Assembly (NCBI RefSeq): GCF_006345805.1
Contig: NC_043002.1
Coordinates: 32,054,001 to 32,118,000, forward strand
Length of the DNA stretch: 64,000 nt
Direction of reading: 5' to 3'
Origin: Octopus sinensis
Lineage: Eukaryota
Part shown: positions 18,658 through 61,657 of the stretch, piece after piece
How the letters are laid out: the number at the start of each line of letters is the position of its first letter
Position numbering within the stretch: the first letter of the stretch is position 1
The notes under the pieces: model-generated
Told to the model about the DNA's origin: nothing
The model's input: only the letters and a program-made list of their open reading frames with translations
The model's database searches: none
Translations under genes and position numbers: made by a program

Positions 18658-18903
18658 GTGAAATAAAATTTACATAGTTAACCGGTTTCGCTTGTTCCGA
18701 TCATGAATAAATGTTTAGTGATAATATTAGAATCTCATGTTATCATATATGGCTGTCATTCCTTGTTAAAAGGAGGAAGGATATCTTTCCTCTTAGTGAC
18801 ACGGAATAAAAACTTTTTATGTTAGCATGATATTGTAACATTATCCCTTAATCTTAGTCTTGTTTTCCACAGGCGAAACCGGTTGGCTGTGTAAATATTT
18901 CAT
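18658..18903. repeat. Fold-back (palindromic) element A
   Basis: tttacatagttaaccggtttcgcttgt pairs with acaggcgaaaccggttggctgtgtaaa; complementarity continues inward to the centre ggaagg-atat-ctttcc. Confidence 0.85.
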
Positions 18904-20018
18904 TACGTAAAAATATATTTATAACTTTTGTCCAATAAAATATTTGTGCATTATTCTTTTTTATGGTTCAGTACAATTCACGACGTAGAATGTTTTTTTT
19001 AGTCAACACACATATACACACACACACATGAACAGACAGACAGACAGACACACACACACACACGCATACAGACATATGTATATATCTATATATATTTATA
19101 TTTATATAAATATAGTCACACAACAGTTACACGAACACACAGCGTTTGTGTTTGCACACACGTGTATATGCATATATATGCATATCTAGACACAGACACA
19201 CACTTGCACGCATTCGCACACACACACACACACATATGCATGTGTGAGTGAATGCGTGTTGTGTATTCGTACGTGTTTGAGCGACTGTGAGCATGCGTTT
19301 AGTGGTGTGTGCGAGGGAAGCGGTAAATATAATTAATGGCTATAGTTAGGGCACGGCCATTTTTCCAAGAGTGTAATTACAGCGATAGAGCTGCAACGAT
19401 GTGGAGCTATATTTTAAACATTGTTCCTTAAATGAATCCATGAAGTAAAGGTAGCGGGGGAGTGCGTTAATGAGGAATGAGCAAACCAACTGCAGTATTA
19501 GATATCAGTGTTCTATTAATGCTTGGAAACAGATACGTTGGTTTAATCACGAATCACGATTCGTCAGCTTCATCTATTCAAGATGTACGAAGCCATAAAA
19601 CCATCGTTAAAATGCATTTATTTCATCATAAATCCTTTAGTAGGGACTACTAACAAACGCTGGCCTCCGTCTCCACTAGACATCTTCTACCACGGACATA
19701 TTTATCACATACTCTCTCATTTAGATGCATTTATTTACATATATAAACAGATCAAGCAAGCGCCGCACATACATGTATCTATGTGTATGTGCGTCTGTGT
19801 GTGTGTTTGTGTGTTTGTGTGTATGTGCATATATGTGCGCTCGTGTATGCATATATATGATATATTCTTACGTTTGTTTGTATGTATGTATGTGTATATA
19901 TATATATATGTGTTTATGTATACATATGTATAATGTACATATATATAAAATATATGTGTATGTGTGTGTATACATACATATTTGCATACGATCAAAATGT
20001 CACATTCACATATGTATG

Positions 20019-20058
<40 letters not shown>

Positions 20059-20128
20059 CACATATGTGTGTGTATTCATATATATATATATAATATATAT
20101 ATATATGAATACACATATATATATATAC

Positions 20129-20201
<73 letters not shown>

Positions 20202-20983
20202 CTAATATTACTAATGGTATATTAAAACTCACATACATACATTAACACCCCTGCATACATGCAAACATACTTGCTTTCATACATTCACATTTCTGAGCAG
20301 CTAGAAACATACACTCACATGTATAAAGTGATGCAGAGAAACACACGGGTTTTGAATTAATCCACTGTTTAATTCTCTGTCCTCTTTACCAAAATCCGAA
20401 GAGTACTGTCCAGCTCTGATCTCTCCATAAACCAACTACGAACATGCAAACCACAAATCACATCTCTGCCATCAATTGGAGATCCTCGTTTTCGATTATT
20501 GACTAATGTCTTCCGTTCAGGCTATTCACTATATTCCACCATATAGCTGAAAAGTATCATATGCTTCTGCTATCGTGAAAATTTTACAGAAATGCTTTCT
20601 ATATATCTTTTCTCAATTCCGCTATGCTCATCTATCGTCTCTAATACACTTTGAACTGTTTCTAATCAACGTTAGTTTTCATTCAACCAGATTTTACTAT
20701 GTATGCATGTCACCATGGTTCTCAATAAAGTCACGTTCATCGGCTTCTTCAATGTACCCATCTTTTCATTTCTCTCTACTCTTCCAGCTAAATGATGATG
20801 GAAAAGCTAAATAATTTTCTATCCTGACCTAACTACTCCATTCAATAAGTTTGCTTCACTGTATCCGTGAATGTCTCATTGATTTTCACGACATAGTTGT
20901 TATCGCCCTCCCATCAAATCCATTCTTTAACATCAATTAATTTTTCCCTGAAGTCGTTTGACCGTCTTTATACATTACTACGA

Positions 20984-21431
20984 ATTTTGGTCCATGAGCA
21001 TTATGGAACTTCAGGTCTACTTATTAATCGATTACTCGGTAATCATCCTTAGCGGAAACTGCATTTCACTTTCTATCATCTAACACAGGTATCTGACCAT
21101 TACGATCTTCGTATGCATGTGCCTCTCATTTCTCCAACCCCCCTACTCAGCAAAAGCCCTTAAACATGGAACTCCAGATATCTTCCTTTGCAGTTGTGCT
21201 ACAGTTGAATAGGTGAGAAGGACTGCTTTAACCGCCTGGAAGAATTCCCTAAGCATTTCCAAGTGCAAAGAACTTCACCGCAAAACCGCAAAAATTTCAA
21301 AACGAGAAAGAAGGCAATTGTTCCTTCCTTCTAGTATTGTACAAATTGCAAGCTGCCTTTTTCCTCAAAAGTCTATTGATTCGAAAATGCCGAATCAAAT
21401 AATTAACGTAAATATTTTGGAAATTTAGAAT
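20984..21431 (+). repeat. Copy 1 of 448-bp direct duplication
   Basis: Nearly identical to 23019-23466; I counted about 5 substitutions; ORFs 21213 and 23248 are near-identical. Confidence 0.95.
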
Positions 21432-21759
21432 AAATTATAATATTGAGATAGAATATACTAGAATAAATAATCTATGTTACGTATGCTATATAGAGCTATA
21501 AATGTTCATGACTTTCCAACAAATTAAAATGTTATCTTCTTCAATTGTGGGTTTATTGATGACTACATATTTCAATATGAATCTCCATTTGTGAATGGAA
21601 CTTGTATTAATTCTATGTGGATTTTTCTTATATATTTTCAATGCCTCTCTAAATCAATGTTTGGCAATGATATTTTCTATTCTTGAAACGTTGATGTTAT
21701 TCCTCTATGAAATAATATTAAACTGCTCGTCGTTGAAATTATGATATTGGCTCTCCAGC

Positions 21760-22960
21760 TACACAACAACCACGATATAGCTGGCAGTGGAGAATCCTAA
21801 GAGAAAGCAGCACGTCAGACATGTGCACTACATGTCCGAGCCATCTCTGGTGATATTCTACATAATGTGGGTTTAATGTTACCGGTAATGATTCGATGGG
21901 GGATTTTTGATCGTCTAATCCTCTATCATCAGGATCTTTTGTATGTAACAGAAATCATAGACCTGGCGGGCCACCTATGTGTTAAAACGTATGTGGCGTG
22001 TATCTTGTATACACACAGAATGGAAACAGCTACCTGATAAGACGGGAGCCAAGGTGTGGAAGCGGGGAGAGCGAGCGTTCATAAATCTCTCCCTTTTATC
22101 CTTCGAAATATTTGTCTGCGGTGGTCCATGGTCTTGTTTAGAATGTAGCTACTTGAAATTATGATGCCTAAACCAGTGAAATGAGAAGGCGGGTTTAGTT
22201 TTTGCTGCACCGTGAAGATATCCTTTTCTACTCTAGGCACAAGGCCCGAAGTTTTATTGGGAGGAGGCCAGTCCATTAGATCGACGTCAGTACGCAACTG
22301 GTATTTAATTTATCGAGCCCGAAAGGAAGAAAGGCAAAGGCGACCTCGGCGGAATTTGAACTCAGAACATAAAGACAGACGAAATACCTATTTCTTTACT
22401 GCCCAGAAGGGGCTAAACACAGAGGGGACAAACAAGGACAGACAAATGGATTAAGTAGATTATATCGAACCCAGTGCGTAACTGGTACTTATTTAATGGA
22501 CGCCGAAATGATGAAAGGCAAAGTCGACCTGGGAGGAACTTGAACTCAGAACGTAGCAGCAGACGAAATACCGCTAAGCATTTCGCCCGACGTGCTAACG
22601 TTTCTGCCAGCTCGCCGCCTTGTGCCGTGAAAATATTGATGAGAGAATGTGGCAGATGACTTCAATTCTTTGGCGTGTTAGGTCCATTTATCAAAAAATT
22701 GTAACAGCTACTTAGATGGCTGCTTATAGGGCTACAGAATTGTGAATTAAGGCTTTTCAATGATCTCTTCATATCCGGATTTAGTGCTGACCGTCAGATT
22801 ATCCATGTTAAAAAGGTTTCCGCCGATTCGAAATCTTATAGTAACTCTCAGCTCCTGTTTCCACATTTTGTGTAGCAATGTAGCCATAGCCACACACACA
22901 TTCAAAAATATATATCTATCAAATATCACAGGAGTGAGAAGACCACCCTGTCTTGTACAT
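21760..22960 (-). mobile_element. Decayed RTE-clade LINE RT fragment interrupted by a SINE
   Basis: RQGGLLTPVIF..IRFRIGGNLFNMDNL..TK resembles the RTE motif QGCVLAP..YRTDG.LFNL.RL..TK; downstream HFTGLGIIISS resembles F.YLGS.IS. Confidence 0.55.
22222..22620 (-). mobile_element. tRNA-derived SINE family B (Nin/Deu-like core), dimeric form
   Basis: Reverse complement ggcggcgagctggcagaaacgttagc..ctgagttcaa..gactttgcctttcatc; core present twice; flanked by ccgtgaagatat / ccgtgaaaatat TSD. Confidence 0.85.
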
Positions 22961-23018
22961 TTCCTTAATGCAATATTTAGGTGCATGTGTGTGAGTGTAT
23001 ACCTCTGTGAGTGTATAT

Positions 23019-23466
23019 ATTTTGGTCCATGAGCATCATGGAACTTCAGGTCTACTTATTAATCGATTACTCGGTAATCATCCTTAGCGGAAACTGCATT
23101 TCACTTTCTATCATCTAACACAGGTGTCTGACCATTACGATCTTCGTATGCATGTGCCTCTCATTTCTCCAACCCCCCTACTCAGCAAAAGCCCTTAAAC
23201 ATGGAACTCCAGATATCTTCCTTTGCAGTTGTGCTACAGTTGAATAGGTGAGAAGGACTGCTTTAACCGCCTGGAAGAATTCCCTAAGCATTACCAAGTG
23301 CAAAGAACCTCACCGCAAAACCGCAAAAATTTCAAAACGAGAAAGAAGGCAATTGTTCCTTCCTTCTAGTATTGTCCAAATTGCAAGCTGCCTTTTTCCT
23401 CAAAAGTCTATTGATTCGAAAATGCCGAATCAAATAATTAACGTAAATATTTTGGAAATTTAGAAT
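23019..23466 (+). repeat. Copy 2 of 448-bp direct duplication
   Basis: See 20984-21431. Confidence 0.95.
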
Positions 23467-23772
23467 GTGTTCACATTATGTACGTATGCACAGGGTGGTG
23501 GACTAGGAGAATCATTAGATCGTTGGACAAAATATCTTGCAGTGATTGTTTCGCATTTTTACATATTGAATTCGTATCCCACCAAGGTCAGTAATGCCTT
23601 TCATTTTTATAGGGTCGATAAGATAAAGTACCTATCAAATGTTAGGTTCAGTATAAGCGACTCATTCCTTTTCCCGGAATTGATGGCATTGTGTTTAATC
23701 TAGAAACCATTATCTACGTCCTTCCGCCCGTTCCTATGTATGTATGTATGTATGTATGTATGTATGTATGTA

Positions 23773-23827
<55 letters not shown>

Positions 23828-23967
23828 CCGTGCATGCTTGTACGCGTGCGCACATAGCAAAATAGTTGCATTTGGTGTGTATATCAGTGATATTGTATTT
23901 CTGACATTTTGAGGTAAATAAAGAATTCATAATTATTATTGTTGTTGGTCTTATTTTCCCTCTGCAG

Positions 23968-24029
23968 ATAACTGGTGTTTTCTTCTATTCATCAAGAATT
24001 CGTCAACAGTGTAATTCACCGTAACGACG
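23968..24029 (+). other. Candidate 62-nt spliced exon (probably UTR or lncRNA)
   Basis: Polypyrimidine acceptor ttattttccctctgcag| and donor ACG|gtacgt in non-repetitive sequence; all three frames contain a stop. Confidence 0.4.
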
Positions 24030-24378
24030 GTACGTTTCTTCATATCTCTACTGCAATCACGCCAACCATAAAGTGTATAGCAACAAGTTCTAAAAAACAA
24101 TGTCTAAATTAGCCCTGCAGTTCACACTTAACATTTCCATCATTTCCTCTATGATAAATTTCTATCTTTCTCAAAGATGTTTTCCAGTCTTCCTTTCTTG
24201 TCCTACCCATTTTACACGTCAAATACAGCTACAGCCATATCACATGACGATTATTTAATATAGTAATAATTTTTTCTCTTTCTGTTTACTCCTCTAAAAA
24301 ACAATCAATAATGTTTTTGATGCTTGTGTTGTTGTCGTAGCTGATGCTGCTGTTGCTACAGCTATCGAGGATTTTGAC

Positions 24379-24409
<31 letters not shown>

Positions 24410-24532
24410 TCGCTACGATAGTTCATTGACATTCTCTCTTTGTCTCATGCAAATTAAGTTATTTTTATAGTCAACCTGCTTTACACCGTAAGCAATACTA
24501 TCTTCACCGTGTTTATTTCTACTCTCCCTAAA

Positions 24533-24850
24533 CATGTATGTATGTATGTATGTATGTATATATGTAGGTATGTATGCATGCATGTATGTATGTATGTATG
24601 TATGTATGTGTGTATGTATATATGTGTGTATGTATGTATGTATGTATGTATGCATGCATGTATGTATGTATGTATGTGTGTATGTATGTATGTATGCATG
24701 TGTGTATGTATGTATGTGTGTATGTATGTATGTATGTATGTGTGTATGTATATGTATTTATGTATGTACGTATGTATGTATGCATATATCTATGTATGCA
24801 TACGAGTGTATGTATGTAAGTATTTATGTGTGAACATGTGTGTGTGTGTT
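24533..24850. repeat. (TATG)n microsatellite
   Basis: Simple repeat, visible directly. Confidence 0.95.
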
Positions 24851-24952
24851 GCTTTTCGTTTATTAAAGTCATCAGACTGCGGTCATGGTGCAGTCCCACG
24901 TTGAAAAATTTGAGTCGAATGAATCGACCCCAGTACTTATGATTTATACTTC

Positions 24953-25130
24953 GTGGCTGGGTGGTAAGAAGCTTGCTTCACAACTTCGTGGCTCTGGGTT
25001 CAGTCCCACTGCATGGCACCTTGGGCAAGTGTCTTCTACTATAGCCACGGGCCGACCAATTCCTTGTGAGTGGATTTGTTAGACGGAAACTGAAAGAAGT
25101 TCACCGTATATTTATGTGTCCATGTGTGTG
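24953..25130 (+). mobile_element. 5' half of SINE family A
   Basis: gtggctgggtggtaagaagcttgc..gggttcagtcccactgc..acggaaactgaaagaag. Confidence 0.85.
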
Positions 25131-25139
25131 TGTGTTTTG

Positions 25140-26200
25140 TTGCTCTATATGTTATTCCAGAACTCTTTCATTTCCTCAGTCTTAGGTGGTTCCTTTACTT
25201 CTATCTTACTTTTGCCAATTTCCTTATAAAATGTCTTTCCAGCCGTCTTGAATACCTTGTTTTGTCGATAAAATTTGATTCTTTTAACATACCTTCAAAG
25301 CAGTTGGGCTTTCGGCTTTATTCGCTGTTTCACTAGTTCCTTGGATGCAGGGAGGTTTATAAAATCTTTGATATAATATTTTTCCTTGATTTTTCTAGTT
25401 TGTTTCATCATGACATTTACTCCTCTAGTCTGTTCATCGAGAACTAATACATCCGCCCGCAAAAATTCGATCTCTTTTTGTATTGGTTCTTTCCAATTAG
25501 GAGGCCTATTGACATGGTTTGTCCTTTCCGTGTCGTCATGAAACCTAGTTGAGCAGTTACCACTTTAACATTGGAATAGATGAGGTTGCTTAAAGTTGTT
25601 AGGTAATTTCCCTTATTTCTTAAGACCTGTCTAAGAGCAACAATACATGTCAAGATTATCTTGATTTTTTATGCTGTTTGAGAACTTTGGTAGCGTTTCT
25701 CTATTGATCATGTCAGTAAAGTCAGTCTTGCTGAGTTCTCTCATATTTTCTTTTGCTTCTATGATCTCTTTATTATTCTCCTCAAATTCTGTGTTATATC
25801 TATTCTGGTGTTCTTGAGGTAGGTCTACTTTTTCCTCTTTTTCTGCATATCTGTTCCTCGCTATTCTTTCTACAGCTTTCATGTTGGAATGTAACGTTTG
25901 TACACTGGGTCCTCTGTACATGTTGCATATTTCATCCGCATTGTTGCTGTTTTCATTTGGTCTACCATTAGATATTTGTGTCCTAATTTGGCTAATTTCA
26001 ATGTCAGTTAAACTGTTATCTGTGTACTTCGTTGCCTGCTAAATTTCTCCATGAAATGTATGTTTATACAATTTATACAAGGAGGTTATTGTTTGGGTTT
26101 AGCTGGGCTGTATAGAAAGCGTTCAATACAACTCTACATTTCTCTCTAGTCTATTTTATGCGTTTTGGGTGAGTTGATATTTTTGGTGGCGTCACTACAG
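25140..26200 (-). mobile_element. Decayed N-terminal region of an R4/Dong-like non-LTR ORF
   Basis: Minus strand reads TREKCRVVLNAFYTAQ and LTDIEISQIR, followed by a charged region (ORF 25631-25921); resembles R4-clade N-termini. Confidence 0.5.
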
Positions 26201-27975: not shown

Positions 27976-28018
27976 ACTATGTGTCTAAACCGGAACGAAT
28001 TATCATTAGTTGTCATCA

Positions 28019-28225
28019 AAGCGGCGAGCTGGCGGAGTCATTAAAAGCGACGGACAAACTGCCTAGCGGTGCTTCTTACGTAACTACGTTTGGGTTCAAA
28101 TTAAAAAATGGTTGACTTCGCCTCTCAACCTTTCGGGGTGGGGGGATAATATAAGTACTATTCAAGCACTGAAACATGTAATCGATTTACTCCTCTCTTC
28201 AATAATTGCTGACTCTGTGCCAAAA
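28019..28225 (+). mobile_element. SINE family B, diverged copy
   Basis: gcggcgagctggcggag..gggttcaaa..cctttcgggg..aagtacta. Confidence 0.7.
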
Positions 28226-28993: not shown

Positions 28994-29048
<55 letters not shown>

Positions 29049-34285: not shown

Positions 34286-34494
34286 TATTGAGCTGGAACT
34301 AAATGCACATAAATACCTACGTACATATGAGTGCGTGTGTGTGTGTGTGAGTGTTTGTACGTACACACACACACATATATATATATATAAAGAGTTTTAA
34401 ATCTAGGCATTGTTCAAGATATATACATTATATAATAATAATAATAATAAAATGACAACAAAAGAATGAGACCTCGATATTATGTAAATAGAGG

Positions 34495-34536
<42 letters not shown>

Positions 34537-34537
<1 letters not shown>

Positions 34538-34757
34538 ATAGGACAATCAGTAAGCTGTCATGATATAACTGAAAGTTTCAAATACCGGAGCTAAGAGCTT
34601 CTTTTAAATATTTTTCATGCCTATTAGAGTAACTTCCTTTTTATTCAACAGTTTTTTTCATGGCATCCATCGTGAAAATAGCCGATGAAAATGCCTCGAA
34701 GCTCTTATCTCCGGCATTTGAATCTCAGACTTCTATCATGACAAGTTACGGACTGTC

Positions 34758-34762
<5 letters not shown>
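34537..34762. repeat. Fold-back element B between two (TA)n tracts
   Basis: gacaatcagtaagctgtcatgata..ttcaaataccggagctaagagcttc pairs with gaagctcttatctccggcatttgaa..tatcatgacaagttacggactgtc. Confidence 0.85.
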
Positions 34763-42019: not shown

Positions 42020-43084
42020 ATCCAGAAATTCCTTCTTACAGCTGTTTCAGCCTGTGGTCAAAAGTGAATCTGCGTTCTGGTGGTGAAGAAGTCGTCGAAG
42101 CGATGAAGGTAGGCGAGTGTTCTGGTGAGTATAGCGGATGAGGCAGAAGTTTCGTAGCCCAATTCGTTCAACTTCTGTAGGATCAGTTGTGCGACGGGCG
42201 GCCGAGCGTTGTCGTGGAGAACAATTGGTCCTTTTCTATTGACCAATGCTGGCTGTTGTTGTCGGAGTTTCTTATACATTTCCTCCATTTGCTGACAGTA
42301 CTTCGCCGCCGTAATGGTTTCGCCTAGATCCAAAGAGCTGTACTGGATGAGACCGGCGGCAGACCACCAAACAGTCACCATGACCTTCTTTTTTTGCAAC
42401 TTTGGCTTCGGGAAGTGCCGTGGAACTTCGTCAGCGTCCAACCACTGAGCTGAGCATCGCCGGTTATCGTAAAGAATCCACTTTGCATAGCAGGTCACAA
42501 TCCGGTCGAGAAACGAGCCGTTCTTGTTGCGTAAAAGAAGGGAAGACGACACTTCAAAATGGCATTTTTTTTCGTTTTGGTTGTCGTTCGATTCGTACGG
42601 CACCAATTTATCAAGTATTTTTGAAGTTGTTGGGAATTGTCGTATACGTTACATCTAATTCAGTAGCAAGCTCTCGAACAGTTGTGCGTGGATTGGCTTC
42701 GACTAAGTCTCTTACGCTTATCATCTTCAAGACTCTTGTAACCGCTACGAAATTTGTTGAACCACGATTGTGCTGCAAGTTCATTAGTGGTTCCTGGGCC
42801 AAACGCATCGTTGATATAGCGAGCTATTTCAGCAGCTTTTCGACCTTGATTGAACTGGAATAAGAAAATTGCGCCAATTTGCTTTTTGTCTATGTTGTAT
42901 TCGACGTTCTGGAAAGAATGACCTAATAATTCAAAAAGAAAAAGGGTAACACGATTAGATAGAGCGAAAAACGGGCTTTGAAATTATACATAAAGTCAAA
43001 GCAATTTAACGAAAATTAATTTGAAAATACATCATTTAAAACCAAAATTAAAAATTCCGCAAGAACTTTTTTGACAACCTAATA
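42020..43084 (-). mobile_element. Decayed mariner (Tc1/mariner) transposon, 5' TIR present, 3' end truncated
   Basis: VEANPRTTVRELATEL (HTH), VPYE, WILYDNRR, KKVMVTVWW, HDNARP and HPLYSPEHSPT (YSPDLAP-like); TIR TA|ttaggttgtcaaaaaagttcttgcgg resembles Hsmar1-type TIRs. Confidence 0.92.
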
Positions 43085-45037: not shown

Positions 45038-46659
45038 TGTGTACAGTGTTCAGGTGCACTACAACTCATCTAAAGTGTATATGTAATCAGGTGTAGTTTC
45101 GACGGATTTCGGGAAGCATGAGGGCCTTAAAGGATGCAGTGTCATGGCAGTCAACAACTGATGCAGGCAGTTTATTCCACGCTTCAGCAACCCTGAGCGT
45201 GAAAAAATGTTTCCGAAAGTCATGGGAGCTGTGCTGTTTTCTGACTTTGTAGCATGTCCACGTGTGTTAGACACATGGAGATCAAAAAGGTGTTCAGTGT
45301 TGTTGTTGGTGAGGTGGTTGATAACCTTGTGGGTGTTTACCAAGTCCGTCGCTAGACGCCGGAGCTTCAGTGAATCCATGCCCAGGGAAACAAGGCGCTC
45401 AGAATATGGTAGGTGTCTGATGGAGGGTATGCGTTTGGTTGCACGTCTCTGGACAGATTCCAGGAGGTCAATGTTCTGAGCAAGATAGGGATTCCAAACT
45501 GATGATGCGAATTCCAAGTGTGGTCGTACCATAGCTGTATACAGTTTTAAATAGATGGCTGGAGAGCGGCTAACAAAAGTCTTGCTGAGTGATGCCAAGA
45601 CACCCTCGGCCTTCTTGACAATTTTAGAGATATGCTTTGTCCAACACAAATCACTGCTGACAGTGATGCCTAGGTCACGCTCGCAAGAGGATTTCTTGAT
45701 ATCAGTGTTGTGGAGGGAGTATGTGGACGCAGGGTTTTTTCTCCCAAAATGTATGGTGGTACACTTGTCCACAGCCAGTTTCAGTTGCCAGTCTGTGATC
45801 CATTGCTGCATTGTGTCTAGGTCTGATTGCAGGAAAGAGTTGTAGACATCAGGATCAGTCCTCTTGATTTCAAGGTACAGCTTGATGTCGTCTGCATATT
45901 TCAATACTGTGGCATTCTTTAAATTGGCATCTATGTCATTAATGTATGCCACAAACAGGAGGGGACCAAGGACAGATCCCTGTGGTACACCCAATGACAT
46001 CTCATATGGTGTAGAGTGCTGTCCTAGAACTGTGACTACCTCCTTTCGGCTGAGGATGAAGGATTTCAACCAGTTAAAAAGGTCATCCCCCACACCCATT
46101 GCAGAGAGTTTCACCATAAGCCTTTTGTGTGGCACAGAGTTGAAAGCCTTAGCAAAGTCAAGGTAGACAACATCCACCCATGAGCCACTGTCAGTGATCT
46201 GAGTAATGTCCTCAAGGAACTCGACAAGCTGGTCACTGCAGCTGGAGTTAGGGACAAATCCATATTGTGAGGGTCGGATGAGACTGTGAGAGCTCCAGAA
46301 GTTCCAGAGTGTTTCTCTGACACACGATTCCATCAGTTTTGCAATACAGCTAGTGAGACTGACTGGGCGATAGTTGACAGGTGATGTGCGGTCACCCTTT
46401 TTGAACAGAGGAATGACACTGGCAGTTTTCCACTGCTCCGGAGTAGCACCATTGTTGAGACAGTACTGGAAGAAAATAGAAAGCTGGTGTAAAAGGAAGT
46501 GCCTGCCACGTTTGAGAAGCAGGTATGTAACTCCATCGAGACCAGGGGAGGCATAGTTGCGCTTATTTTGAAGGTGACGTCGCAGCATTGCAGGTGTAAA
46601 TTCCATAGTTGTTATGGAGTTTGCTGTTAGTGATGGTGAAGATGTTTGCTGTTAGTGAT
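45038..46659 (-). mobile_element. 5'-truncated CR1/L2-group LINE inserted in a (GAT)n microsatellite
   Basis: Long RT ORF, (ATT)n 3' tail, no endonuclease domain present. Confidence 0.92.
45059..46606 (-). CDS. LINE ORF2 reverse transcriptase domain (515 aa, 5'-truncated; probable frameshift near the C-terminus)
   Basis: SPGLDG, NYRPVSLTS, QYGF, YLDFAKAFNSVPH, GVPQGSVLGPLLF, YADD, ERDLGI, VRPHLEF, LESVQRRATK. Confidence 0.93.
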   Translation of the reverse strand: MEFTPAMLRRHLQNKRNYASPGLDGVTYLLLKRGRHFLLHQLSIFFQYCLNNGATPEQWKTASVIPLFKKGDRTSPVNYRPVSLTSCIAKLMESCVRETLWNFWSSHSLIRPSQYGFVPNSSCSDQLVEFLEDITQITDSGSWVDVVYLDFAKAFNSVPHKRLMVKLSAMGVGDDLFNWLKSFILSRKEVVTVLGQHSTPYEMSLGVPQGSVLGPLLFVAYINDIDANLKNATVLKYADDIKLYLEIKRTDPDVYNSFLQSDLDTMQQWITDWQLKLAVDKCTTIHFGRKNPASTYSLHNTDIKKSSCERDLGITVSSDLCWTKHISKIVKKAEGVLASLSKTFVSRSPAIYLKLYTAMVRPHLEFASSVWNPYLAQNIDLLESVQRRATKRIPSIRHLPYSERLVSLGMDSLKLRRLATDLVNTHKVINHLTNNNTEHLFDLHVSNTRGHATKSENSTAPMTFGNIFSRSGLLKRGINCLHQLLTAMTLHPLRPSCFPKSVETTPDYIYTLDEL

Positions 46660-50411: not shown

Positions 50412-50507
<96 letters not shown>

Positions 50508-50890
50508 GAAAACAAAACTACTGCAATTAATTGTAATATAAATAAACGTTTTAAAACTACGATTCAACTGTAATACCAGTAGAGCTGATTATAAGACCAA
50601 AATTCAATTCGATTTAAAAAGTAACGCCATCATCTTCAACTGAATATAAACGCAGGAAGCTTGTTTGAATTAGTTCACTTAGAAAACGTCGTAAGTGATG
50701 GAGCCTTGATAAAATTGTAGCGACTAGGGTGCATAATTTCATACAGAACAATGTGTAGTTGCTAGAGTAGAGTCGTATGCTGGTCATTGTTATATACGCT
50801 GTAGAAAACTTTTTAATACAAAGTTTTTGATGTGAATACATCTCCACTCTCCTCTTGGTTTTCAATTATATATATATATATATATATATA

Positions 50891-50932
<42 letters not shown>

Positions 50933-51194: not shown

Positions 51195-51498
51195 GGATCT
51201 TTTCCTTTTGATGGACGGAATTTTCTAGTTAACTAAACAATTTGAAACTTCGTATACTGGTAGAATGTGTCAAAAGAAAACAAATATTGTAAGCAAAATT
51301 GAAAACAAAATTGTAATTTGTAAGTTTAACGTAGTTTAATTCTTCGAATCTTAACCAATGAAATGCCAGCATTTGAGCTCAAATCATTTGCTGCGTTATC
51401 GATATTGATAAAAAACATAGCAGACGCACGCCGCATACACACACACACGTATATTCAGATACATACACACGTACACTTGCACACACACACACTCTCTG

Positions 51499-51535
<37 letters not shown>

Positions 51536-52134
51536 CACATGCATATACATTTGCACAAGCACATAGTAATTAATATATAAGCGTACACACACATACGCAC
51601 ACAAGTTTGTGAGTTCGCACTGGTGTCGATAGAATCGACTTAATACTTTTGTATCTCATGCTTTGTCCCCTCTGTGTTTTGCCCCTTGCCGAAACAAATT
51701 TACACAAAAGGTAAATAAACCAGAAGGGGGAGGGGTCAATGTTTCATCGTTTCGGGGACGATAAATTAAGTACCAATTACGCACTGGTATCGAGGATTTT
51801 TTCCCCAATTTATATCACAGCCTCCGACAAGCTGGGGCATCCTTTTATGAAAAAATATTTCGCAAATTTTTACAATACGACCCACACTCCACGCATACCC
51901 TCTAGAACGATTTAGGCATATTATTGTTTTGTTTTTGTTGTTTCTGGCCCTTCGAAACCATGGGAGAAGCCTTTTCGGTAAAAAAAAAATAAAGAAAATA
52001 TTCAAAAAATATCGTTAATATTTTTATTGGGCGACGAAATTCATCGATTTAAGAGAAATAGCTGTTATTTCTAGCACATGCCTCCTCCTTCCGCCTTTGT
52101 TTATCAAACAGGCAGAAGAGAGAAGGATGAAAAA

Positions 52135-52178
<44 letters not shown>

Positions 52179-52413
52179 TTACGTTGCAAGAGGATATTGT
52201 CTGAGTTTTTAGACGCAACAAATGATTTCAGCTCAAATGCTGGCATTTCATTGGTTAAAATTCGAAGAATTAAACTACGTTAAACTTACAAATTACAATT
52301 TTGTTTTCAATTTTGTTTACAATAATGTTTTCTTTTGACACATTCTACCAGTATACGAAGTTTCAAATTGTTTAGTTAACTAGAAAATTCCGTCCATCAA
52401 AAGGAAAAGATCC
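51195..52413. mobile_element. Non-autonomous DNA transposon with ~200-bp TIRs and an 8-bp TSD (Merlin-like)
   Basis: TIRs at 51195-51396 and 52213-52413 (GGATCTTTTCC...GGAAAAGATCC); tagaaatt duplicated at 51187-51194 and 52414-52421; ORFs beginning MPAFELKSF on both strands confirm the inversion. Confidence 0.9.
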
Positions 52414-54338
52414 TAGAAATTTTCTAACCAGCTAATTCACTGGTCGCAAGATCGATGTCACCTGTTCTCTATATATTGCGAGGTGGAATGAACTACTGCT
52501 ATCTCTAGCAAACGAGTATACACCACTATGGTGGTTAATTGCTAAAGATGTCGCATAGATTGGCAATTGATCGTCCAAACTACGTGAGATTGTTTATAGT
52601 GAAATTTCAGGAAATGAAGATCAACATTTTAAATATCCCGAAGTAGTAAATACTATTTCGTAGTAATAAATATGAGCTAAATTTTTTAATTCTCTACTAC
52701 GTGTCCACTTGCACTGCTAGGAAGTATGAGGAAATTTTAAAGGTGTATTTTTACTGAGATCTCAGTGGGCCGAAGTTGTACATTCTTCCTCAGCTGGAGA
52801 TCTCAGAAGACTTCAATCTATTTTGCTTGTCCACGGAATGATGAAAAGCTCATGTCTATTTTTCAGGTGTTTCAATTTTTCCGTATTTTACATTACAAAT
52901 AATCACGAAGCATCATTAAGTTATTACTGATTGATAATGAAGCCCATGTTTGATACATTCTCTTCTCCCTGTGACTGTTCTACGGCTACAACAAAGGTCT
53001 CTGTTCCTCGAATATTTCTAAGTCGAGACCATCTCCTTATTTTTTGCACACTCGTTACTACTCCCTTCATTACTTTTGCATTATACAACTCAACCAGGCC
53101 AAGCAGTAATCACTACACTCAGTTTTCCTTTCTTTCTGGAATGTCGGCTTTCTGTTTATCTTTTTCGCAGTTATTGGCTGACAAACATTCAAGAGGAACA
53201 TTGGTAGTTTCATTGATAGGTCATGAACCCTATCCCTCCTCAACAAGTATAAATAAATACATATTCGGCGGACCAGTTTAGCTGTGTCCGAATTTGTAGC
53301 CAATATAAATAACTATAAGCTACTATTCTCCCCCGTGCGCGGCAAACAAGTGTTCTGAAGACAGAGAGAAGGTGATAACTCCATATATGTTTCAGCTTTA
53401 ATAGACCATGTGAGCGAAAAATGGTTTATAATGTTTTCGTATATATTTGATGGCTTAAGACATATATAGGAATTTTTTGAATAAACACAGAATGGCATTA
53501 TATTTGGGAAAAATACATAAGGTGGTTTTCTGCATGAAAAATTAGTAGACGGAATCAAGCAAAGTAAATTTTGATTTATTATAATTACAAGTTTAACGAG
53601 AAAATTATTGGCTAAATAAATTAGAAAATGCAAGGGAAACAACTGTGATATTTTTTATTTCTTAAAGATTAATGAAAAATAGAAGTGGAAGAGGGAATGT
53701 GTTTCGATCTAAATGTTTTTTTTTAGTGAAACATAGTATAAATATCATTGCGGATTTAGCTGACTATGATATCAATGCTTACAAGACTGATATTATAGTA
53801 TGTAATGAACATAGGACGCTAATATTAACATATCAATTCCAGCTGAACTTCGTTCAATACAGTGACACCGCAGTTTATGCATTTGTAGCCTCTCTTCATA
53901 GATCTGCATAGAAATAATTATGTATATATGTATATATATTTATTGTATATATATATATATATATATACAATAAAGACGGAGAGAGCAAGAAATGAAGGAA
54001 GGAAGGACGGATGGAAGGAAGGAAGGAAGAGAGGAAGGAAGGAAGGAAGGAAGAGAGGAAGGAAGGAAGGAAGATCATTAACAAGAGTGTATTTGTAATT
54101 AAACCCATATGACCGTATGTACATTTAGACAATCGCTCGCACATACATATGTGTATCTCTCAATCTATCTATCTTTATCTCTCTCACTCCCTCTCTTCCT
54201 TCCACTTTATATATATACGTTTGTATGCATGTATATATTTATGTATACGAGTGTGTGTATGTCGGGGTGTGTGCATTTGTGTACACTCGAGTATAAAACG
54301 ACAAATATATATATATATCTACATACATAGATAAATAA

Positions 54339-54403
<65 letters not shown>

Positions 54404-54573
54404 CATAAATATATATGTGTGTGTTGTGTGTATGGATGAGTGTACATACATATACGTAAACACTTATGCATCTACGCCTTTGAGTTTCATGATTAATACA
54501 CTTATGTTCATAAATCATTATGTTAGACGTATTTTCTCATTATTTATTGTGTGCATACTGTTATATATATATG

Positions 54574-54604
<31 letters not shown>

Positions 54605-54613
54605 TATATATAT

Positions 54614-54680
<67 letters not shown>

Positions 54681-54963
54681 GTAGAGATTTTCCTATATAT
54701 ATATATATGTACGCATTATGTAAGTATGTATGTATGTATGTATGTATGTATGTCTCTAGCAATGCATCAAAACCTAAATACATATGTACACACACATGTA
54801 CACATATCAAATACACTCACATATATAGATGCATACATATACGCATACATACACACATACATAAATGCGTTTGTGCACGCACGCGTTTTTCTGCATATAT
54901 TTATATATATGCATACATATAAATGAATGCGTGTATGTAGTATACACGTATTTATGAAACCTA

Positions 54964-54995
<32 letters not shown>

Positions 54996-55539
54996 TGTAT
55001 CTAAGCACGTATGTTGTACACGTCCGCTGTAGAAGGCTCCGTGTCACAAACAATATATCAGTTTAACAGATTAGTTCAATAAATGACGATATTGCGCTAC
55101 AAAAGTCATTCTAAGATGTTCGACAGTGACTAGATCTGTCAGTAGGTAGATATATATCCAGGGAGAGTAGCTTCTTCCGAGAGACAATCAAAATAGATAA
55201 ATTTTGAATCTTCTGCTCAATAAGAAGCACAGAAAAAGAGAAAGAAAGTGAGGATGGAGGTAAGGATGGCAGGAAGGAAGAAAGGAAGGAAAGGTGAACA
55301 AGTTGGTGTCAGAATTGACCAATTAAGTCCTGTTCGTGTCAGTTGCTAAATGACTCATATAATAATATTTGATTATTTGAAAGATGAGCGAAAGAATTTT
55401 AGGAAGTGAATTCTGTGCAGTATGGTGTAGCCTACTGTGGGTTCAATACCACGAAGTGTTTCCTTCACCAAATATTTTTTATAGATACGATTAATTGATT
55501 CTAGATTCTCTTCGTTGGCGACATTATGATAGATATTAA

Positions 55540-56065
55540 TGCGGCAAGCTAGCAGAATTGTTACAGCACCAAACAAAATGATTAGTGGCATTTCGTCCGT
55601 TTTTACGTTGTGAGTTCGAATCCTGCAAAGGTCGACTTTGCCTTTCATCTTTTCGGGTCGATAAAACAAATACCAACTGAGCACTGGGATCGATGTAGTC
55701 GACTTACTCCTTACCCTTAAATTGATGGCCTTGTAGCAAGCTGAGTACTGGTGTCGACGTAATGGAGTTAGTTCCTCCCTTGAAATTACTGGCTTTGTGC
55801 CGCATTATAAAACCGCTATTATGATTAATATTAAGGCGGTGAGCGAGCAGAATCGTTAACATGCCGAGTAAAATGCTTAGAATCATTTCGATGCAATCGA
55901 CTTGGCTTCTCCTTTAAAAATTTTGAAGCCTTTTTCCTATAAGCAGAAAGGATTATTACTAAGGCAGCCAACAGGCAAAATAAAATACTTGTAGCTTTTC
56001 TTGAAGATCTTTTTGTTCAGGGTTCAAATTCTGCCGAGATCATCTTTGCGTTTCATCCTCTCCAT
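55540..56065 (+). mobile_element. Tandem cluster of about three SINE family B copies
   Basis: Repeated gcgg..agc.agcagaat.gtta heads and gactttgcctttcatc cores. Confidence 0.75.
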
Positions 56066-56474
56066 TTTTTTTTAATATTTTTAAAGCATTCGCTCGTTAC
56101 AGGGTCCTTAGAGCACTGAAAACGTAATAGCTACTAGAATGAAATAGACGTTAGACAGAAGAGAATACGTAACGATGTACATTAGACTTAAAAGACTGGA
56201 GGTTATATTGAAGAACAAAACAAGCCCTTAGAAGGAATTCCAAACTTCACAGGTGCGAGGGAAGAAACTGGTACTGTAAAGTGCTTTACGACACTTAGGA
56301 AGTTGCACAGTATACTAATGAGAACTGGTTGCAAGTCTAGTTGATCACTGATAAGTTCTTAAAGGAGGATTCAGAGAAGAGAGCTCAACTGAACAATGTC
56401 CATGAAAATACTTATGGAAAAGACGCAAGGTAGTCACACGACGACGATGAGAGAATGAATCCAATTTAGGAGAT
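56066..56474 (-). mobile_element. 3' fragment of a CR1/L2/Jockey-group LINE with poly(A), inserted into a family B SINE
   Basis: LDSFSHRRRVTTLRLFHKYFHGHCSVEL motif; T-run tail on +; the SINE core tttcatcc... resumes as gtcgataaaataaagtaccag after the insert. Confidence 0.75.
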
Positions 56475-56665
56475 AGTCGATAAAATAAAGTACCAGTTAA
56501 GCAAAGGGGTCGATTTAGTCGACTTCCCACGAGTTACCAGGCATTTAGCCTTTGTTGAAGCAATTATTTATGGTGTGGATTACCGGAATCTCTTGAATTT
56601 CGGCTTGAGTGTAGTGCGACATTGCTTCTTACTCTCTGCGATCTATTGTTTAATAAATTGAAGTA

Positions 56666-56990
56666 TGGTGAGGGCGCGTGGCTTAGTGGTTGGGGCATTC
56701 GGCTCATGATCGTAAGGTTGTGAGTTCGATTCCCGGCGACGCGTTGTGTCCTTGAGCAAGACACTTTATTTCACGTTGCTCCAGTCCACTCAGCTGGCAA
56801 AAATGAGTTGTACTTGTATTTCAAAGGGTCAGCCTTGTCACTCTCTGTGTCACTCTGATTATCCCCGAGAACTACGTTAAGGGTACACGTGTCTGTGGAA
56901 TGCTCAGCCATTTGCACGTTAATTTCACGAGCAAGCTGTTCCGTTGATCGTATCAGCTGGGACCCTCGTCGTCGTAACCGGCGGAGTCTT
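56666..56990 (+). mobile_element. tRNA-derived SINE family C1, full copy
   Basis: gggcgcgtggcttagtggtt..gagttcgattccc (A and B boxes), gtgtccttgagcaagacactt core, 3' ..cgtaaccggcggagt. Confidence 0.88.
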
Positions 56991-57799
56991 TTAAGAAATT
57001 GAAGTACGACTTATGTTTTTGCTTCGAAATTTGTTTTATGCTAATTTTAAAAGCAACTGTTTCTGTTACCCTACACTTAACGAGTGATAAAAATAGATCT
57101 ACGCATGCCCATTCTTTTTGTAAGAAAAACAGGGTAGGATGCATTATCTAGTATACCCCATCTTGTTTTCATGACGGTCTATATCATTTCATGTACACAT
57201 ATATCATTAACACCACGACAATCCATCTGCTACGTATATCTACACTTATATTACCTTCTTAAAAATGTGTCCCTTTGAACAAAGCACCAGTAAAATTCAA
57301 TGCCTAACGGGATCATAAGGCTACTTACCATATTACCATATTAGAATGATGTTGTTTTGTTAGAATTTCTGCTACATATTCGAAGTATCAAGATGTATTG
57401 CAATATGGAGTAAGTAGAATATATTGCCGCACTGCTAAATGGTACAAATTTACCTTCAAATAAATAGTCTCTACGAAGTTGTCCAGTTCAAAGACAGACC
57501 TTCGTTGTAATCATATAGAAGACTTGGAATTTTGAGAATATATTAATCTCACCCACTTGTACATGTTGGCATTCTTCTAAGGCTTCTGTAACGTTCATAA
57601 CTGCCTCTCTATGTTAACAATTTTGAACGTTACAGAAACATTAGTGGAGTCCCCGACAGATTTCTTTCGTTCATGATCACTGTTATACAGAAATTAGAAA
57701 CACTGAATTGCGACAACGTTTTTTTTTAATCCGGCTATGTTTATTCTTTATTTATTTACTTCAAAGCAAATTCATTTTTCATTGGGTAATCATTTGAAG

Positions 57800-58132
57800 A
57801 GATAGCATGCCGGGCGAAATGCTTTGTGGTATTTCGTCTGTCACTACGTTCTGAGTTCAAATTCCGCCGAGGTCGACTTTGCCTTTCATCTTTTCGGGTT
57901 CGATTAAATAAGTACCAGTTACGCACTGGGTCGATATAATCGACTTAATCTGTTTGTCTGTCCTTGTTTGTCCCTTCTGTGTTTAAACCCTTGTGGGTAA
58001 TAAAGAAATAGGTATTTCGTCTGTCTTTACGTTCTGAGTTCAAATTCGACCGATGTCGACTTTGCCTTTCATCCTTTCGGGGTGGATAAATTAAGTACCA
58101 GTTGCGTACTGACGTCGATCTAATAGACTGGC
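57800..58132 (+). mobile_element. SINE family B, dimeric form
   Basis: Two ctgagttcaaatt..gactttgcctttcatc..aagtaccagtt units joined by the same spacer as in 22222-22620. Confidence 0.88.
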
Positions 58133-58210
58133 AAAATATCATAGCTGCTTCGCGCCAATTACCACTGATACTGCTGAATTTAGCTGGCGCTAACATATAT
58201 ATATATATAT

Positions 58211-58487
58211 ATATATTGTATAAAAGATCGTGGGTAAGGCCAAAACAATGCGACGGAAATGCAAGGTAAATCACAAGAGAACAAAGATGTGAATTAATGT
58301 GACTTACCTTGTATTCAATATTTCGGGCTTATGACCCTATTATCAAGAAATTGACGAATGTTGACAAACCCCAAAATATTGAATACAAGGTAAGTCTGCA
58401 TTAATTCACATATTTGTTTTCTTGTGATTTACCTTGCATTTACTTCGCATTGTTTTGGCCTAACCCACGATCTTTTATACAATATAT
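58211..58487. repeat. Fold-back element C adjacent to (TA)n
   Basis: ~117-bp arms: attgtataaaagatcgtggg..ttaccttgtattcaatattt pairs with aaatattgaatacaaggtaa..cccacgatcttttatacaat; ~42-bp loop. Confidence 0.92.
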
Positions 58488-58579
58488 TCTACACAATGCA
58501 TCATAGTAATTATTCCATTATAATATACATACATATATATATATATACATACATACATACATATATATATTATATATAT

Positions 58580-58628
<49 letters not shown>

Positions 58629-59083
58629 GCAAACAAGCACACACACATAAAAAACAGAGAAATAATAAGGGTGAGTGTATGGCTAAGTGTTTCACAATTA
58701 GCAGTACAACGAGAGTTGCAATAGAAGAGATTGAGATGGTGGGACATCTGTAATCAAGCTACAAAAGTATTGGCTATATGTTTAAAGCCACAAATCATAT
58801 TAGAGATATGGAGATGTGAGATTATTTCCGGAGAACAATATTGCAATTAATGTGTACATACGCATATGACTCTGTTGCCGCCGCCGCCACCCTACTGCTG
58901 CGGCTGCTCTTACTCATGATGATGATGACGCGTATGATGACGCGTATGATTATGGTAATGTGATTGACAATGTATTGTTAATGAACACGCTTACATACAG
59001 TACGCGTGCAAAATCTTAATCAGAGATGAATACGCTACTAGACATATCGACACACATCAATACATCCCGTGTGCGAACGAACA

Positions 59084-59153
<70 letters not shown>

Positions 59154-60213
59154 TCACTCAGAAACGCGTACATCGGCTCTCATTTTCATATATACATACA
59201 CACGACTAATTTTTTCCACAAAGGTACACACATATGAACCCTGAATATATTATCACAGCTATTCACGGAAATCATATACAGACATACAACAGAACACGCC
59301 ATGTAAACAAACACAAACATGACGTATACGCACACTCGTTTATACATATTAACAGGACATATACACACATGCATTCTTGCTTGCATTAATATGATATATA
59401 CAGACATATGCGTAAATACACTGAGGAAACCTAGATAATATCAGTTGTTTATACAGGAAATGCATCACCATACACGTACATCCAACTCACTTAAATGTAT
59501 ACTTACAGACATATGTGTGTGTTCGTGTGACTGAAGTTGAATGTCGTCGCATGTTACATGCATATGTATAACATACAAATATGCTAAATTGCAGTTACTA
59601 TCAAACAAAGAAGCAGTCATAACACAGCATCGTCATAATTATCACCAACATCACAGCCAACAGCAAAACCGCTAAATCCACTACGACCACCATTACGGAT
59701 GATTTGTTACTCTGGAGTTTCCATATTGTGCTGTGGCATTCTCAAAAAAAACTTGGACGATACCGGTCTGCTTTGTCAGAAGAACTGATTGTAAAAGCAT
59801 GAAAATTACGATTCTACGATTGTGATATTTACTTTTCCAGATAGTTACCCTGCAACACACTTACAAACACACACAAAAGCACATACATACACTCGCACAA
59901 AAACATGCACACTCGAAAGCACACACGCAAGCAAACGTGCGTGGGCGCGCGCACACACGCACACATATAAGCAAAACGTGGAGTAGATGAAATTAAGGCG
60001 ACTGAAGAAGGGGAATTTTTCTTGTTTGTATGTCCTGTACTCTATTTTTTTGTTGTTTAAAAAAATGTCCATTTCCTCGGTTTTGTGTTTATGCTTTCGT
60101 TTCTCATTGTGTTCGACGTTTTTTGGTGTCCTGTACCCATATATGCATGTATATATACATGTAGAGGTAGGTACGTACATATATGTATGTATATATGCAT
60201 ATGTTTTATTTAT

Positions 60214-60276
<63 letters not shown>

Positions 60277-60279
<3 letters not shown>

Positions 60280-60640
60280 CGCAGGAGTGGCTGTGTGGAA
60301 AGAAACCTACTTTCCAACCACTGAGTGTCACCTTGGGCAAATCTTTTCTACTACAGCCTCGGGCCAACCAAAACTTGTGAGTGGATTTGGTAGAAGGAAA
60401 CTGAAAGAAGCCCTTCGTATGTATGTATATATTCGTGTGTCTGCTTTTTCTCCCACCATCCGCACAACACTTGACAACCGATGTTGGTGTTTACGTCCCC
60501 GTAACCTAGAGGTTCGGCAAAAGACACCGACAGAATAAGTACTAAGCTTACAAAGAATACACCCTGAGGTCAATTTGTTTGACCAGAGGCGGTGCTCCAG
60601 CAAGGCTATAGTTAAATGAGTGATACAACTAAAATAATAA
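60277..60640 (+). mobile_element. SINE family A copy (internally deleted head)
   Basis: ggcgcaggagtggctgtgtgg..cttgacaaccgatg..gcggtgctccagca. Confidence 0.85.
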
Positions 60641-60723
60641 AATAATATATATATATTAAACAAGTACACATAAAATACATTTATACATACATGTGTATAC
60701 ATATATATATAAATATATATATA

Positions 60724-61105
60724 GTGGCTGTGTGGTAAGTAGCTTGCTAACCATCCACATGGTTCCGGGTTCGGTCCCACTGCGTGGCATCTTGGGCAAG
60801 TGTCTTCTGTTATAACCCCGGGCCGACCAATGCCTTGTGAGTGGATTTGGTAGACGGAAACTGAAAGAAGCCTGTCGTATATATGTATATATATGTATGT
60901 GTGTGTGTTTGTGCGTCTGTGTTTGTTCCCCTAGCATTGCTTGACAACCGATGCTGGTGTGTTTACGTCCCCGTCACTTAGCGGTTCGGCAAAAAGAGAC
61001 AGATAGAATAAGTACTTAAGGCTTACAAAAAGAATAAGTCCCGGGGTCGAGTTGCTCGACTAAAGGCAGTGCTCCAGCATGGCTGCAGTCAAATGACTGA
61101 AACAA
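60724..61105 (+). mobile_element. SINE family A, near-consensus copy
   Basis: Highly similar to 38506-38900; (gtaaaaga)n tail. Confidence 0.92.
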
Positions 61106-61177
61106 GTAAAAGAGTAAAAGAGTAAATATATATATATATATATCTGTACACACATACACGTACACACACATATATAT

Positions 61178-61228
<51 letters not shown>

Positions 61229-61339
61229 TATTTACATACATACCAGGCCTAAGCTTAAACTCAGCTCGCCTTGTTCCCTTATAAGATTTCTGTTGAAATC
61301 AAACGCAGATTTCATAAACGGTAAAAGGGAAAATTATAG

Positions 61340-61566
61340 ATAATGTGGGTGGATAATTCGCAATTTTACAACCTAAAAGAAGAAATATATACGTCACTAG
61401 AGTGACAAAGGGCGCTAAGGAGCACCAGCATTGCTAGAAATATGTACCAAAACAACCTGCCTCCCTTGTCAGTCGTTAAGCTAATGCTTCTGTCGCCATT
61501 GAGTTGTTTTGATTCTTATTTCTAGCAGTACTTGTGCTGATTAGTGCCCTTTGTCACTTCAGTGAC

Positions 61567-61615
<49 letters not shown>

Positions 61616-61657
61616 CGCCTGTAGGTTGTAAAATTGCGAATTAGCCTCCCGTATTAT
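61340..61657. repeat. Fold-back element D with an internal (TA)n expansion
   Basis: Inner arms tatacgtcactagagtgacaaaggg..tgctagaaata / tatttctagca..ccctttgtcacttcagtgacgtata; outer arms taattcgcaattttacaaccta / taggttgtaaaattgcgaatta. Confidence 0.88.

What the first reader, a model, noticed from the sequence alone, without database searches (positions are those of the whole stretch)
18658..61657. A class of sequence-unrelated 230-320 bp fold-back elements tied to (TA)n/(TG)n tracts, some with hammerhead-like cores
Seen: four clear palindromic elements (18658-18903, 34537-34762, 58211-58487, 61340-61657) and a weaker fifth (~50545-50780). They share architecture (rod-like hairpin, microsatellite flank, no ORF, no clear TSD) but not sequence, as far as I can see by eye. 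Three contain GAA(A) followed by a short palindrome (gaaACCGGTt, gaAGCTc, gaAATATT), the layout of helix III in minimal type I hammerheads. Established: Penelope-like elements carry minimal hammerheads and often form inverted terminal structures, and retrozymes are small non-coding hammerhead retroelements. Inference: these may be an undescribed group of non-autonomous, microsatellite-targeting, rod-shaped RNA-mobilised elements with ribozyme motifs in both polarities. The alternative is ordinary hairpin MITEs.
Basis: partly seen in the sequence, partly recalled or inferred. Interest (0 to 1): 0.75.

Follow-up and report, generated by a model that had tools for sequence, protein, structure and literature searches.

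The report
Penelope retroelement ends, inserted head-to-head
Four of the five hairpins are real, but three are the cut-off, back-to-back ends of unrelated Penelope-type jumping genes and one comes from a protein-free repeat likely carried by the same enzymes, a layout already described in animals and not a new class of rod-shaped RNA.

Summary
Four fold-backs (A 18659, B 34541, D 58211, E 61340) are real and unrelated in sequence; the fifth (C) does not fold back. All five belong to dispersed repeat families. The hairpin is not the mobile unit: many copies are single-armed, and the inversion point differs between copies. [quoted passage not shown] The layout, an inverted truncated copy plus a one-sided tail in (TA)n, is published. 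A, B, D and E families carry type I hammerhead motifs, decayed or missing in the window's copies. E is a ~348-nt tandem unit with a canonical hammerhead and no PLE frame beside any of 58 loci, so it is retrozyme-like and shows the same insertion footprint. One less ordinary point: head-to-head inserts pair one short with one tailed end (D 21 of 24), suggesting two primings, one per target strand. This scan noted all of this before on other DNA of this and other genomes. Self-cleavage and circular RNA are untested.

The parts
18659..18788 (-). Element A, inverted 5'-truncated arm ending at the short end; carries a decayed hammerhead motif (~18673-18710)
18781..18904 (+). Element A, sense arm = 3' UTR/pLTR of a Neptune-type PLE; decayed hammerhead motif 18852-18899 (family core A3-U8, helix III palindrome ACCGGT)
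18905..18992 (+). Element A, one-sided extension (tail) shared with other copies
34450..34497 (-). Element B, one-sided tail, separated from its arm by a (TA)n tract
   Evidence: (L061 left end scores as tailed)
34498..34540 (.). (TA)n tract inside element B at the short-end site (expansion inferred)
34541..34599 (-). Element B, inverted arm, truncated within helix II of the hammerhead motif
34600..34760 (+). Element B, longer arm = 3' end of a Hydra-type PLE; hammerhead motif 34674-34750 with GAAA and helix III decayed in this copy
50505..50867 (+). Element C: single-arm 3' end of another Hydra-type PLE family; not a fold-back
58211..58363 (-). Element D, inverted arm ending at the short end; hammerhead motif 58305-58356 (U3-A8 core, extra nucleotide before helix II, helix II closing pair mutated)
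58357..58487 (+). Element D, sense arm, starting about 24 nt before the predicted cut site and lacking the core
58488..58521 (+). Element D, ~34-nt one-sided tail
61243..61456 (-). Element E, left arm; reads through the long end into the next ~348-nt unit and stops just before that unit's hammerhead
61458..61661 (+). Element E, right arm ending at the long end, with (TA)n (61568-61615) at the internal short-end site; no hammerhead in this copy
18331..18491 (+). Second, decayed single-arm copy of family E (71% identity) just left of element A

Best explanation
The hairpins are head-to-head pairs of 5'-truncated 3' ends of dispersed repeats, three of them continuous in longer copies with Penelope-like RT/GIY-YIG reading frames and the fourth from a ~348-nt non-coding hammerhead tandem unit, and each was likely built at insertion by a Penelope-type enzyme that nicks (TA)n and copies one RNA twice. 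Inferred steps: the GIY-YIG domain nicks both strands of an AT microsatellite; the RT starts once at an internal short-end site and once 35-90 nt further 3' (the tail); both copies stop early; their 5' ends are joined. The hammerhead is a passenger in the copied segment and does not set the arm ends. E is likely a non-LTR retrozyme moved in trans by the same kind of enzyme.
For: Multi-copy: first-look candidates 68 (A), 464 (B), 379 (C), 1051 (D), 1103 (E), only 40 scored each. ORF linkage. A: 3 of 24 loci run from an ORF end into the arm within ~200 nt (L038, L042, L051; tblastn to the RT/GIY-YIG protein of L143 E 4e-72 for L042). D: copies extend 5' into a GIY-YIG end and RT (L167, L173, L176, L203, L209; Pfam RVT_1 over cut-off). 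B: four of 30 loci from the 5'-extension search (L265, L267, L269, L273) have a Hydra-type endonuclease end upstream by tblastn, L277 and L280 share that DNA, and L281/L282 show RT motifs with DKT; database relatives hit RVT_1 and GIY-YIG weakly and carry RW(K/R/L) and DK(T/S). C: GIY-YIG end upstream in L124 and L133. Variable structure: of 30 D loci found with arm+tail, 19 are head-to-head and 11 single-armed; B inversion spans about 430-800 nt in other copies. End pairing: D 19 long+short, 3 short+short, 0 long+long of 22, plus 2 of 2 in the ORF-found set; 21 of 24 against 0.47 expected, P = 4e-5; B 7 of 8, P = 0.03. Hammerhead descriptor hits in loci: A 2 of 24, B 12 of 27, D 16 of 30, E 7 of 30 (some of the E hits are other elements), against 0.1-0.25 hits per shuffled 64 kb. 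E helix I has one compensatory pair (12 U-A, 11 C-G). E is tandem, period 335-348 nt, with no PLE frame beside 0 of 58 loci. Literature: inverted pLTR plus 30-40 nt tail and (TA)n bias (PMC8557442; PMC3846280); two RT start sites, both strands cut and extended, hammerhead dispensable in vitro (PMC11167929).
Against: Rfam found no hammerhead at gathering score in 20 loci, and none among the 150 of 346 window matches listed. B shows no compensatory change (0 of 22 pairs), and most B copies read C at core position 4, a variant reported to lower activity in vitro (PMC3088659). E's single covarying pair may be one subfamily event. Pfam did not recognise B's own ORF fragments (0 of 6 relevant), so that link rests on tblastn, motifs and database relatives. 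No enzyme partner was found for E. The long/short counts depend on a score threshold; one D insert 1.85 kb long was counted as single-armed, and 'single' copies may have a partner beyond the 1.5-kb flanks. In the unbiased E set only 7 of 11 head-to-head inserts scored long+short (2 unresolved, 1 short+short, 1 long+long). Arkhipova et al. 2013 favour self-priming on an antisense template for the inversions, and this is not excluded.
Confidence: 0.88

Rival explanations
1. An undescribed class of rod-shaped, ribozyme-bearing RNAs that is copied and inserted as a whole hairpin.
For: Strong folding; hammerhead motifs on both strands; the top D hits are nearly all ~270-nt hairpins.
Against: That uniformity comes from the query. 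With an arm+tail query 11 of 30 copies are single-armed and spans vary. The 22 D inserts have 22 different arm-start pairs. A, B and D continue into PLE frames. Arm 5' ends do not sit at the predicted cut site: nearest -3, about 22 of 38 between -70 and -3 (BLAST edges, approximate).
Confidence: 0.04
2. Hairpin MITEs of DNA transposons that target TA repeats.
For: Inverted arms and TA flanks; Tc1/mariner remnants exist in the window.
Against: One-sided tails, single-arm copies, variable centres, hammerhead motifs and continuity with RT/GIY-YIG frames. Transposase linkage was not searched with a dedicated query.
Confidence: 0.02
3. Same identity (PLE ends), but the inversion forms by self-priming fold-back of a cDNA or antisense template, and the tail difference is made by endonuclease resolution, not by two primings.
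For: Proposed in PMC3846280 and PMC8557442. Arms overlap by a few bases in 12 of 22 D junctions. Resolution at the internal AT site could also give one short and one long end.
Against: A fold-back predicts one arm to be a copy of the other up to a hairpin loop. Here both arms often hold different lengths of parent sequence, and some junctions have 3-17 extra bases. In vitro, both target strands are extended from two start sites.
Confidence: 0.3
4. E is only the tandem pLTR of an autonomous PLE whose ORF was missed, not a retrozyme.
For: Only 58 loci with 1.5-kb flanks were seen; the longest runs are under two units; no RNA circle was shown.
Against: Every extension examined, 5' or 3', continues into the same ~348-nt cycle; 14 of 57 loci read through into the next unit; 0 of 58 have a PLE frame.
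Confidence: 0.25

Closest known systems
Insertions of endonuclease-bearing Penelope-like elements with inverted 5'-truncated pLTR and one-sided tail (Arkhipova et al. 2013, PMC3846280; Craig et al. 2021, PMC8557442)
   Same: Head-to-head truncated 3' ends, optional tail at one end, (TA)n targets, RT followed by C-terminal GIY-YIG in the parents of A, B, C and D.
   Different: These copies are extreme stubs. Tails of A (~90 nt), B (~48 nt) and E (~50 nt) exceed the quoted 30-40 nt. Near-obligate long+short pairing was not found stated in the passages read.
[quoted passage not shown]
   Same: U3-A8 core, extra nucleotide between 9 and 10.1, G10.1-C11.1 and short palindromic helix III in D; pairs on opposite strands 100-700 bp apart.
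   Different: A has an A3-U8 core and B mostly C4; neither is named in the two of four parts read. Activity untested.
Hydra clade PLEs (PMC8557442, section 11)
   Same: B parent: DKT motif, CxC-type linker, CxxC and CxH around E/N, (TA)n target; C endonuclease is 36% identical to B's over 75 aa.
   Different: Assigned by motifs only, no tree; B has a long microsatellite-rich 3' UTR (~900 nt).
Metazoan non-LTR retrozymes (PMC7229834; bioRxiv 10.64898/2026.07.22.740005)
   Same: E: ~348-nt tandem unit, 37-40% GC, type I hammerhead per unit, no ORF.
   Different: Arrays under two units; inserted with inverted arm, two fixed ends and TA target; circular RNA and cleavage not shown.

Membership tests
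EN+ Penelope-like elements (A, B, C, D) | 3' end continuous with one ORF of RT plus C-terminal GIY-YIG | tested here: met
   A; D; B (motifs and relatives; Pfam blank on own fragments); C (endonuclease end only, below cut-off)
EN+ Penelope-like elements (A, B, C, D) | 5' truncation with adjacent inverted copy | tested here: met
   for C only one inverted pair among 41 matches
EN+ Penelope-like elements (A, B, C, D) | Optional one-sided tail | tested here: met
EN+ Penelope-like elements (A, B, C, D) | Type I hammerhead motif in the pLTR | tested here: met
   Descriptor hits for A, B, D; not for C (0 of 15); no Rfam hit
EN+ Penelope-like elements (A, B, C, D) | RT groups with PLEs/telomerases in a tree | not tested
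   No named reference sequences were in hand; clades assigned from motifs in PMC8557442
Non-LTR retrozyme (E) | 170-400 nt tandem unit with one type I hammerhead, low GC, no ORF | tested here: met
   two hammerhead-bearing units in L247
Non-LTR retrozyme (E) | Self-cleavage of the RNA | not testable with these tools
   Needs an in vitro assay
Non-LTR retrozyme (E) | Abundant monomeric linear and circular RNA | tested here: inconclusive
   Only assembled contigs of guessed RNA runs were available
MITE of a DNA transposon | Fixed length, symmetric terminal inverted repeats, same structure in all copies | tested here: not met
MITE of a DNA transposon | Fixed-length target-site duplication | not tested
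   Cannot be read in (TA)n flanks; no formal test run

The most novel reading that the evidence does not exclude
The strict pairing of one short and one tailed end, shared by coding PLE families and by the protein-free unit E, is the genomic record of a Penelope enzyme dimer priming both strands of a cut (TA)n from two fixed sites on one RNA; E would be a circular retrozyme copied this way, direct footprint evidence that PLEs move animal retrozymes, and the internal AT start sites then seed new microsatellites.
Probability: 0.45. Interest if true: 0.55.

Novelty: new member of a known kind. Interest (0 to 1): 0.27.

Why it matters
Mostly a matter of correct annotation: these short hairpins look like MITEs or new ribozyme RNAs but are PLE stubs. 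How PLEs make inverted ends and tails is still open in the papers read (PMC8557442, PMC11167929), and thousands of short inserts give countable end points to test models. PLE mobilisation of animal retrozymes has been argued from co-occurrence and sequence kinship (PMC7229834; bioRxiv 2026); E adds the insertion footprint. The same points were noted earlier by this scan on younger families, so this window adds little beyond another example.

Tried and rejected
Rfam: window scan at E<=5 gave microsatellite/miRNA noise in the 150 of 346 matches listed; 0 matches at gathering score in 20 loci. The first alignment of family B mixed orientations and was replaced. The PLE frame beside D copy L024 belongs to an A-like element, and D is merely adjacent. 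The L138-type frame near B copy L072 was not accepted as B's parent; B's parent was found with a second search. End types from BLAST extension over-called tails in TA flanks and were replaced by direct tail scoring. The E set found with the window query is biased toward long+short (14 of 15) and was not used as support. None of the five elements matches the 3' flanks of the 30 top GIY-YIG loci outside simple repeats, so the young intact family is not the parent. RNA: no RNA holder listed; contigs of 4 guessed-RNA runs gave scattered, mostly under-90% pieces from many copies, no verdict. Circular folding of 4 single E units gave z -2.8 to -5.2, branched and not rod-like. Papers seen: PMC8557442 passages and section 11; PMC4209133 parts 1-2 of 4; PMC11167929 parts 1-2 of 4; bioRxiv 10.64898/2026.07.22.740005 part 1 of 5 and passages; PMC7229834, PMC3846280, PMC13282606, PMC3088659 passages only. 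No supplements were read; those of PMC8557442 and PMC13282606 may already list these families. Five literature searches did not show a statement of long+short pairing; that is a limited search.
Full report
Setting. The window lies in a 2.72-Gb animal assembly, octopus-like by its repeats (recalled, from no call). It is rich in microsatellites.

Observation. Self-BLAST and folding confirm four fold-backs: A (z -11.7), B (-8.4), D (-27.8) and E (-16.0). The fifth, C, does not fold better than shuffles (z +1.3). The five are unrelated in sequence (best E 0.22). All are dispersed repeats: 68, 464, 379, 1051 and 1103 first-look candidates for A, B, C, D and E, of which 40 were scored each.

The hairpin is not the unit. 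Aligning 22 distinct D hairpins showed a ~34-nt tail beyond one arm only, and a different centre in each copy. A search with arm plus tail, which does not select for hairpins, gave 19 head-to-head and 11 single-armed copies of 30, with spans from about 160 nt to several hundred. Most A and B hits match one arm, and B inversions elsewhere span about 430-800 nt. The window's elements therefore extend beyond the reported limits, and in B and E a (TA)n tract lies inside the element at an internal AT-rich end point.

Parents. The genome holds thousands of GIY-YIG candidates, some in open frames of about 781 aa; L143 carries RVT_1 and GIY-YIG. For A, three of 24 loci run from the end of such an ORF through ~200 nt into the arm. 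The linker is of the CX2-5CxxC type that PMC8557442 gives for Neptune and Nematis; I call it Neptune-type from its similarity to L143, by recall. For D, longer copies continue 5' through a GIY-YIG end into an RT that passes the Pfam cut-off; its clade is unassigned. For B, a ~900-nt microsatellite-rich 3' UTR leads to an ORF with DKT, RT-like motifs, and CxxC/CxH around the conserved E and N, the Hydra-clade signature. Pfam did not score these fragments, but full-length database relatives show weak RVT_1 and GIY-YIG hits. C is the single-arm end of a related family.

Family E. It is a cycle of 335-348 nt: arm, tail region, hammerhead, arm again. Fourteen of 57 loci read through into the next unit; none of 58 has a PLE frame within 1.5 kb. 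This fits the published definition of non-LTR retrozymes (PMC7229834), which a 2026 preprint derives from PLE ends. The window's copy stops just short of the hammerhead.

Hammerheads. A descriptor with a shuffle control (0.1-0.25 hits per 64 kb) found type I motifs in 2 of 24 A, 12 of 27 B, 16 of 30 D, 7 of 30 E (some from other elements) and 0 of 15 C loci, and none at the window's four elements. Cores are A3-U8 (A), C3-G8 with mostly C4 (B), U3-A8 with an extra base before helix II (D), and canonical (E). Helix III is palindromic or nearly so in each, as for dimer-type motifs (PMC4209133). In B, position 17 varies among U, C and A and is never G in 22 rows. E has one compensatory pair in helix I (28 of 30 rows, two with indels left out); B has none (22 of 27 rows). 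Rfam gave no hit. Activity is thus predicted, not shown. D arm 5' ends do not fall on the predicted cut site, in line with the in vitro result that cleavage is not needed for insertion.

Mechanism. Shown: structure, ORF linkage, variable junctions, TA association (38 of 44 ends against 19%), and end pairing. Head-to-head D inserts are long+short in 21 of 24 (expected 0.47 from 6 tailed of 16 single arms, P = 4e-5), B in 7 of 8, and E in 7 of 11 with 2 unresolved; the idea to count this came from an earlier scan note. Inferred: nicking of both strands of (TA)n, two RT starts at two internal sites, early stops, and joining of the 5' ends. This matches the two start sites and two-strand extension of the Anolis PLE in vitro (PMC11167929). 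Self-priming with later resolution (PMC3846280) remains a fair rival.

Verdict. The inverted pLTR, the tail, the (TA)n bias and opposite-strand hammerhead pairs are all in print, and PLEs are annotated as abundant in an octopus genome (PMC13282606). The scan has recorded the same pattern several times, including retrozyme-like families in this genome. These are new members of known kinds; interest 0.27.

Noticed in passing
window 51253-52356: Inverted repeat with arms of at least 124 nt at 93% and ~816 nt between them; looks like a non-autonomous DNA transposon with long terminal repeats.
   Followed up: no
window 2178-5781 (+): Broken LTR-retrotransposon pol fragments: aspartyl protease and RNase H-like domains by Pfam.
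   Followed up: partly
window 45062-46651 (-): 530-aa open frame with a LINE-type reverse transcriptase (RVT_1, E 8e-36).
   Followed up: partly
window 42061-42648 (-): Mariner-type transposase fragment (Transposase_1).
   Followed up: partly
window 18331-18491: Decayed second copy of family E just left of element A.
   Followed up: partly
   Followed up: no
L143 (G000:C6:82398301-82401564) and G000 hits: Young PLE family with many near-identical GIY-YIG hits, several ~781-aa open frames and an intact-looking U3-A8 hammerhead motif in the 3' end: a candidate enzyme for in vitro tests.
   Followed up: partly
L154:2250-2390: Another short fold-back family with a hammerhead motif reading C at core position 4, like family B.
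   Followed up: no
L087/L088 (G000:C15:26065853-26067029): A whole B fold-back with its tail is duplicated in tandem, period ~723 nt.
   Followed up: no
L024 (G000:C1:55828286-55831550); L138: PLE ends cluster: a D hairpin sits at the TA-rich end of an A-like PLE, and two different PLE ORFs meet tail to tail in L138.
   Followed up: partly
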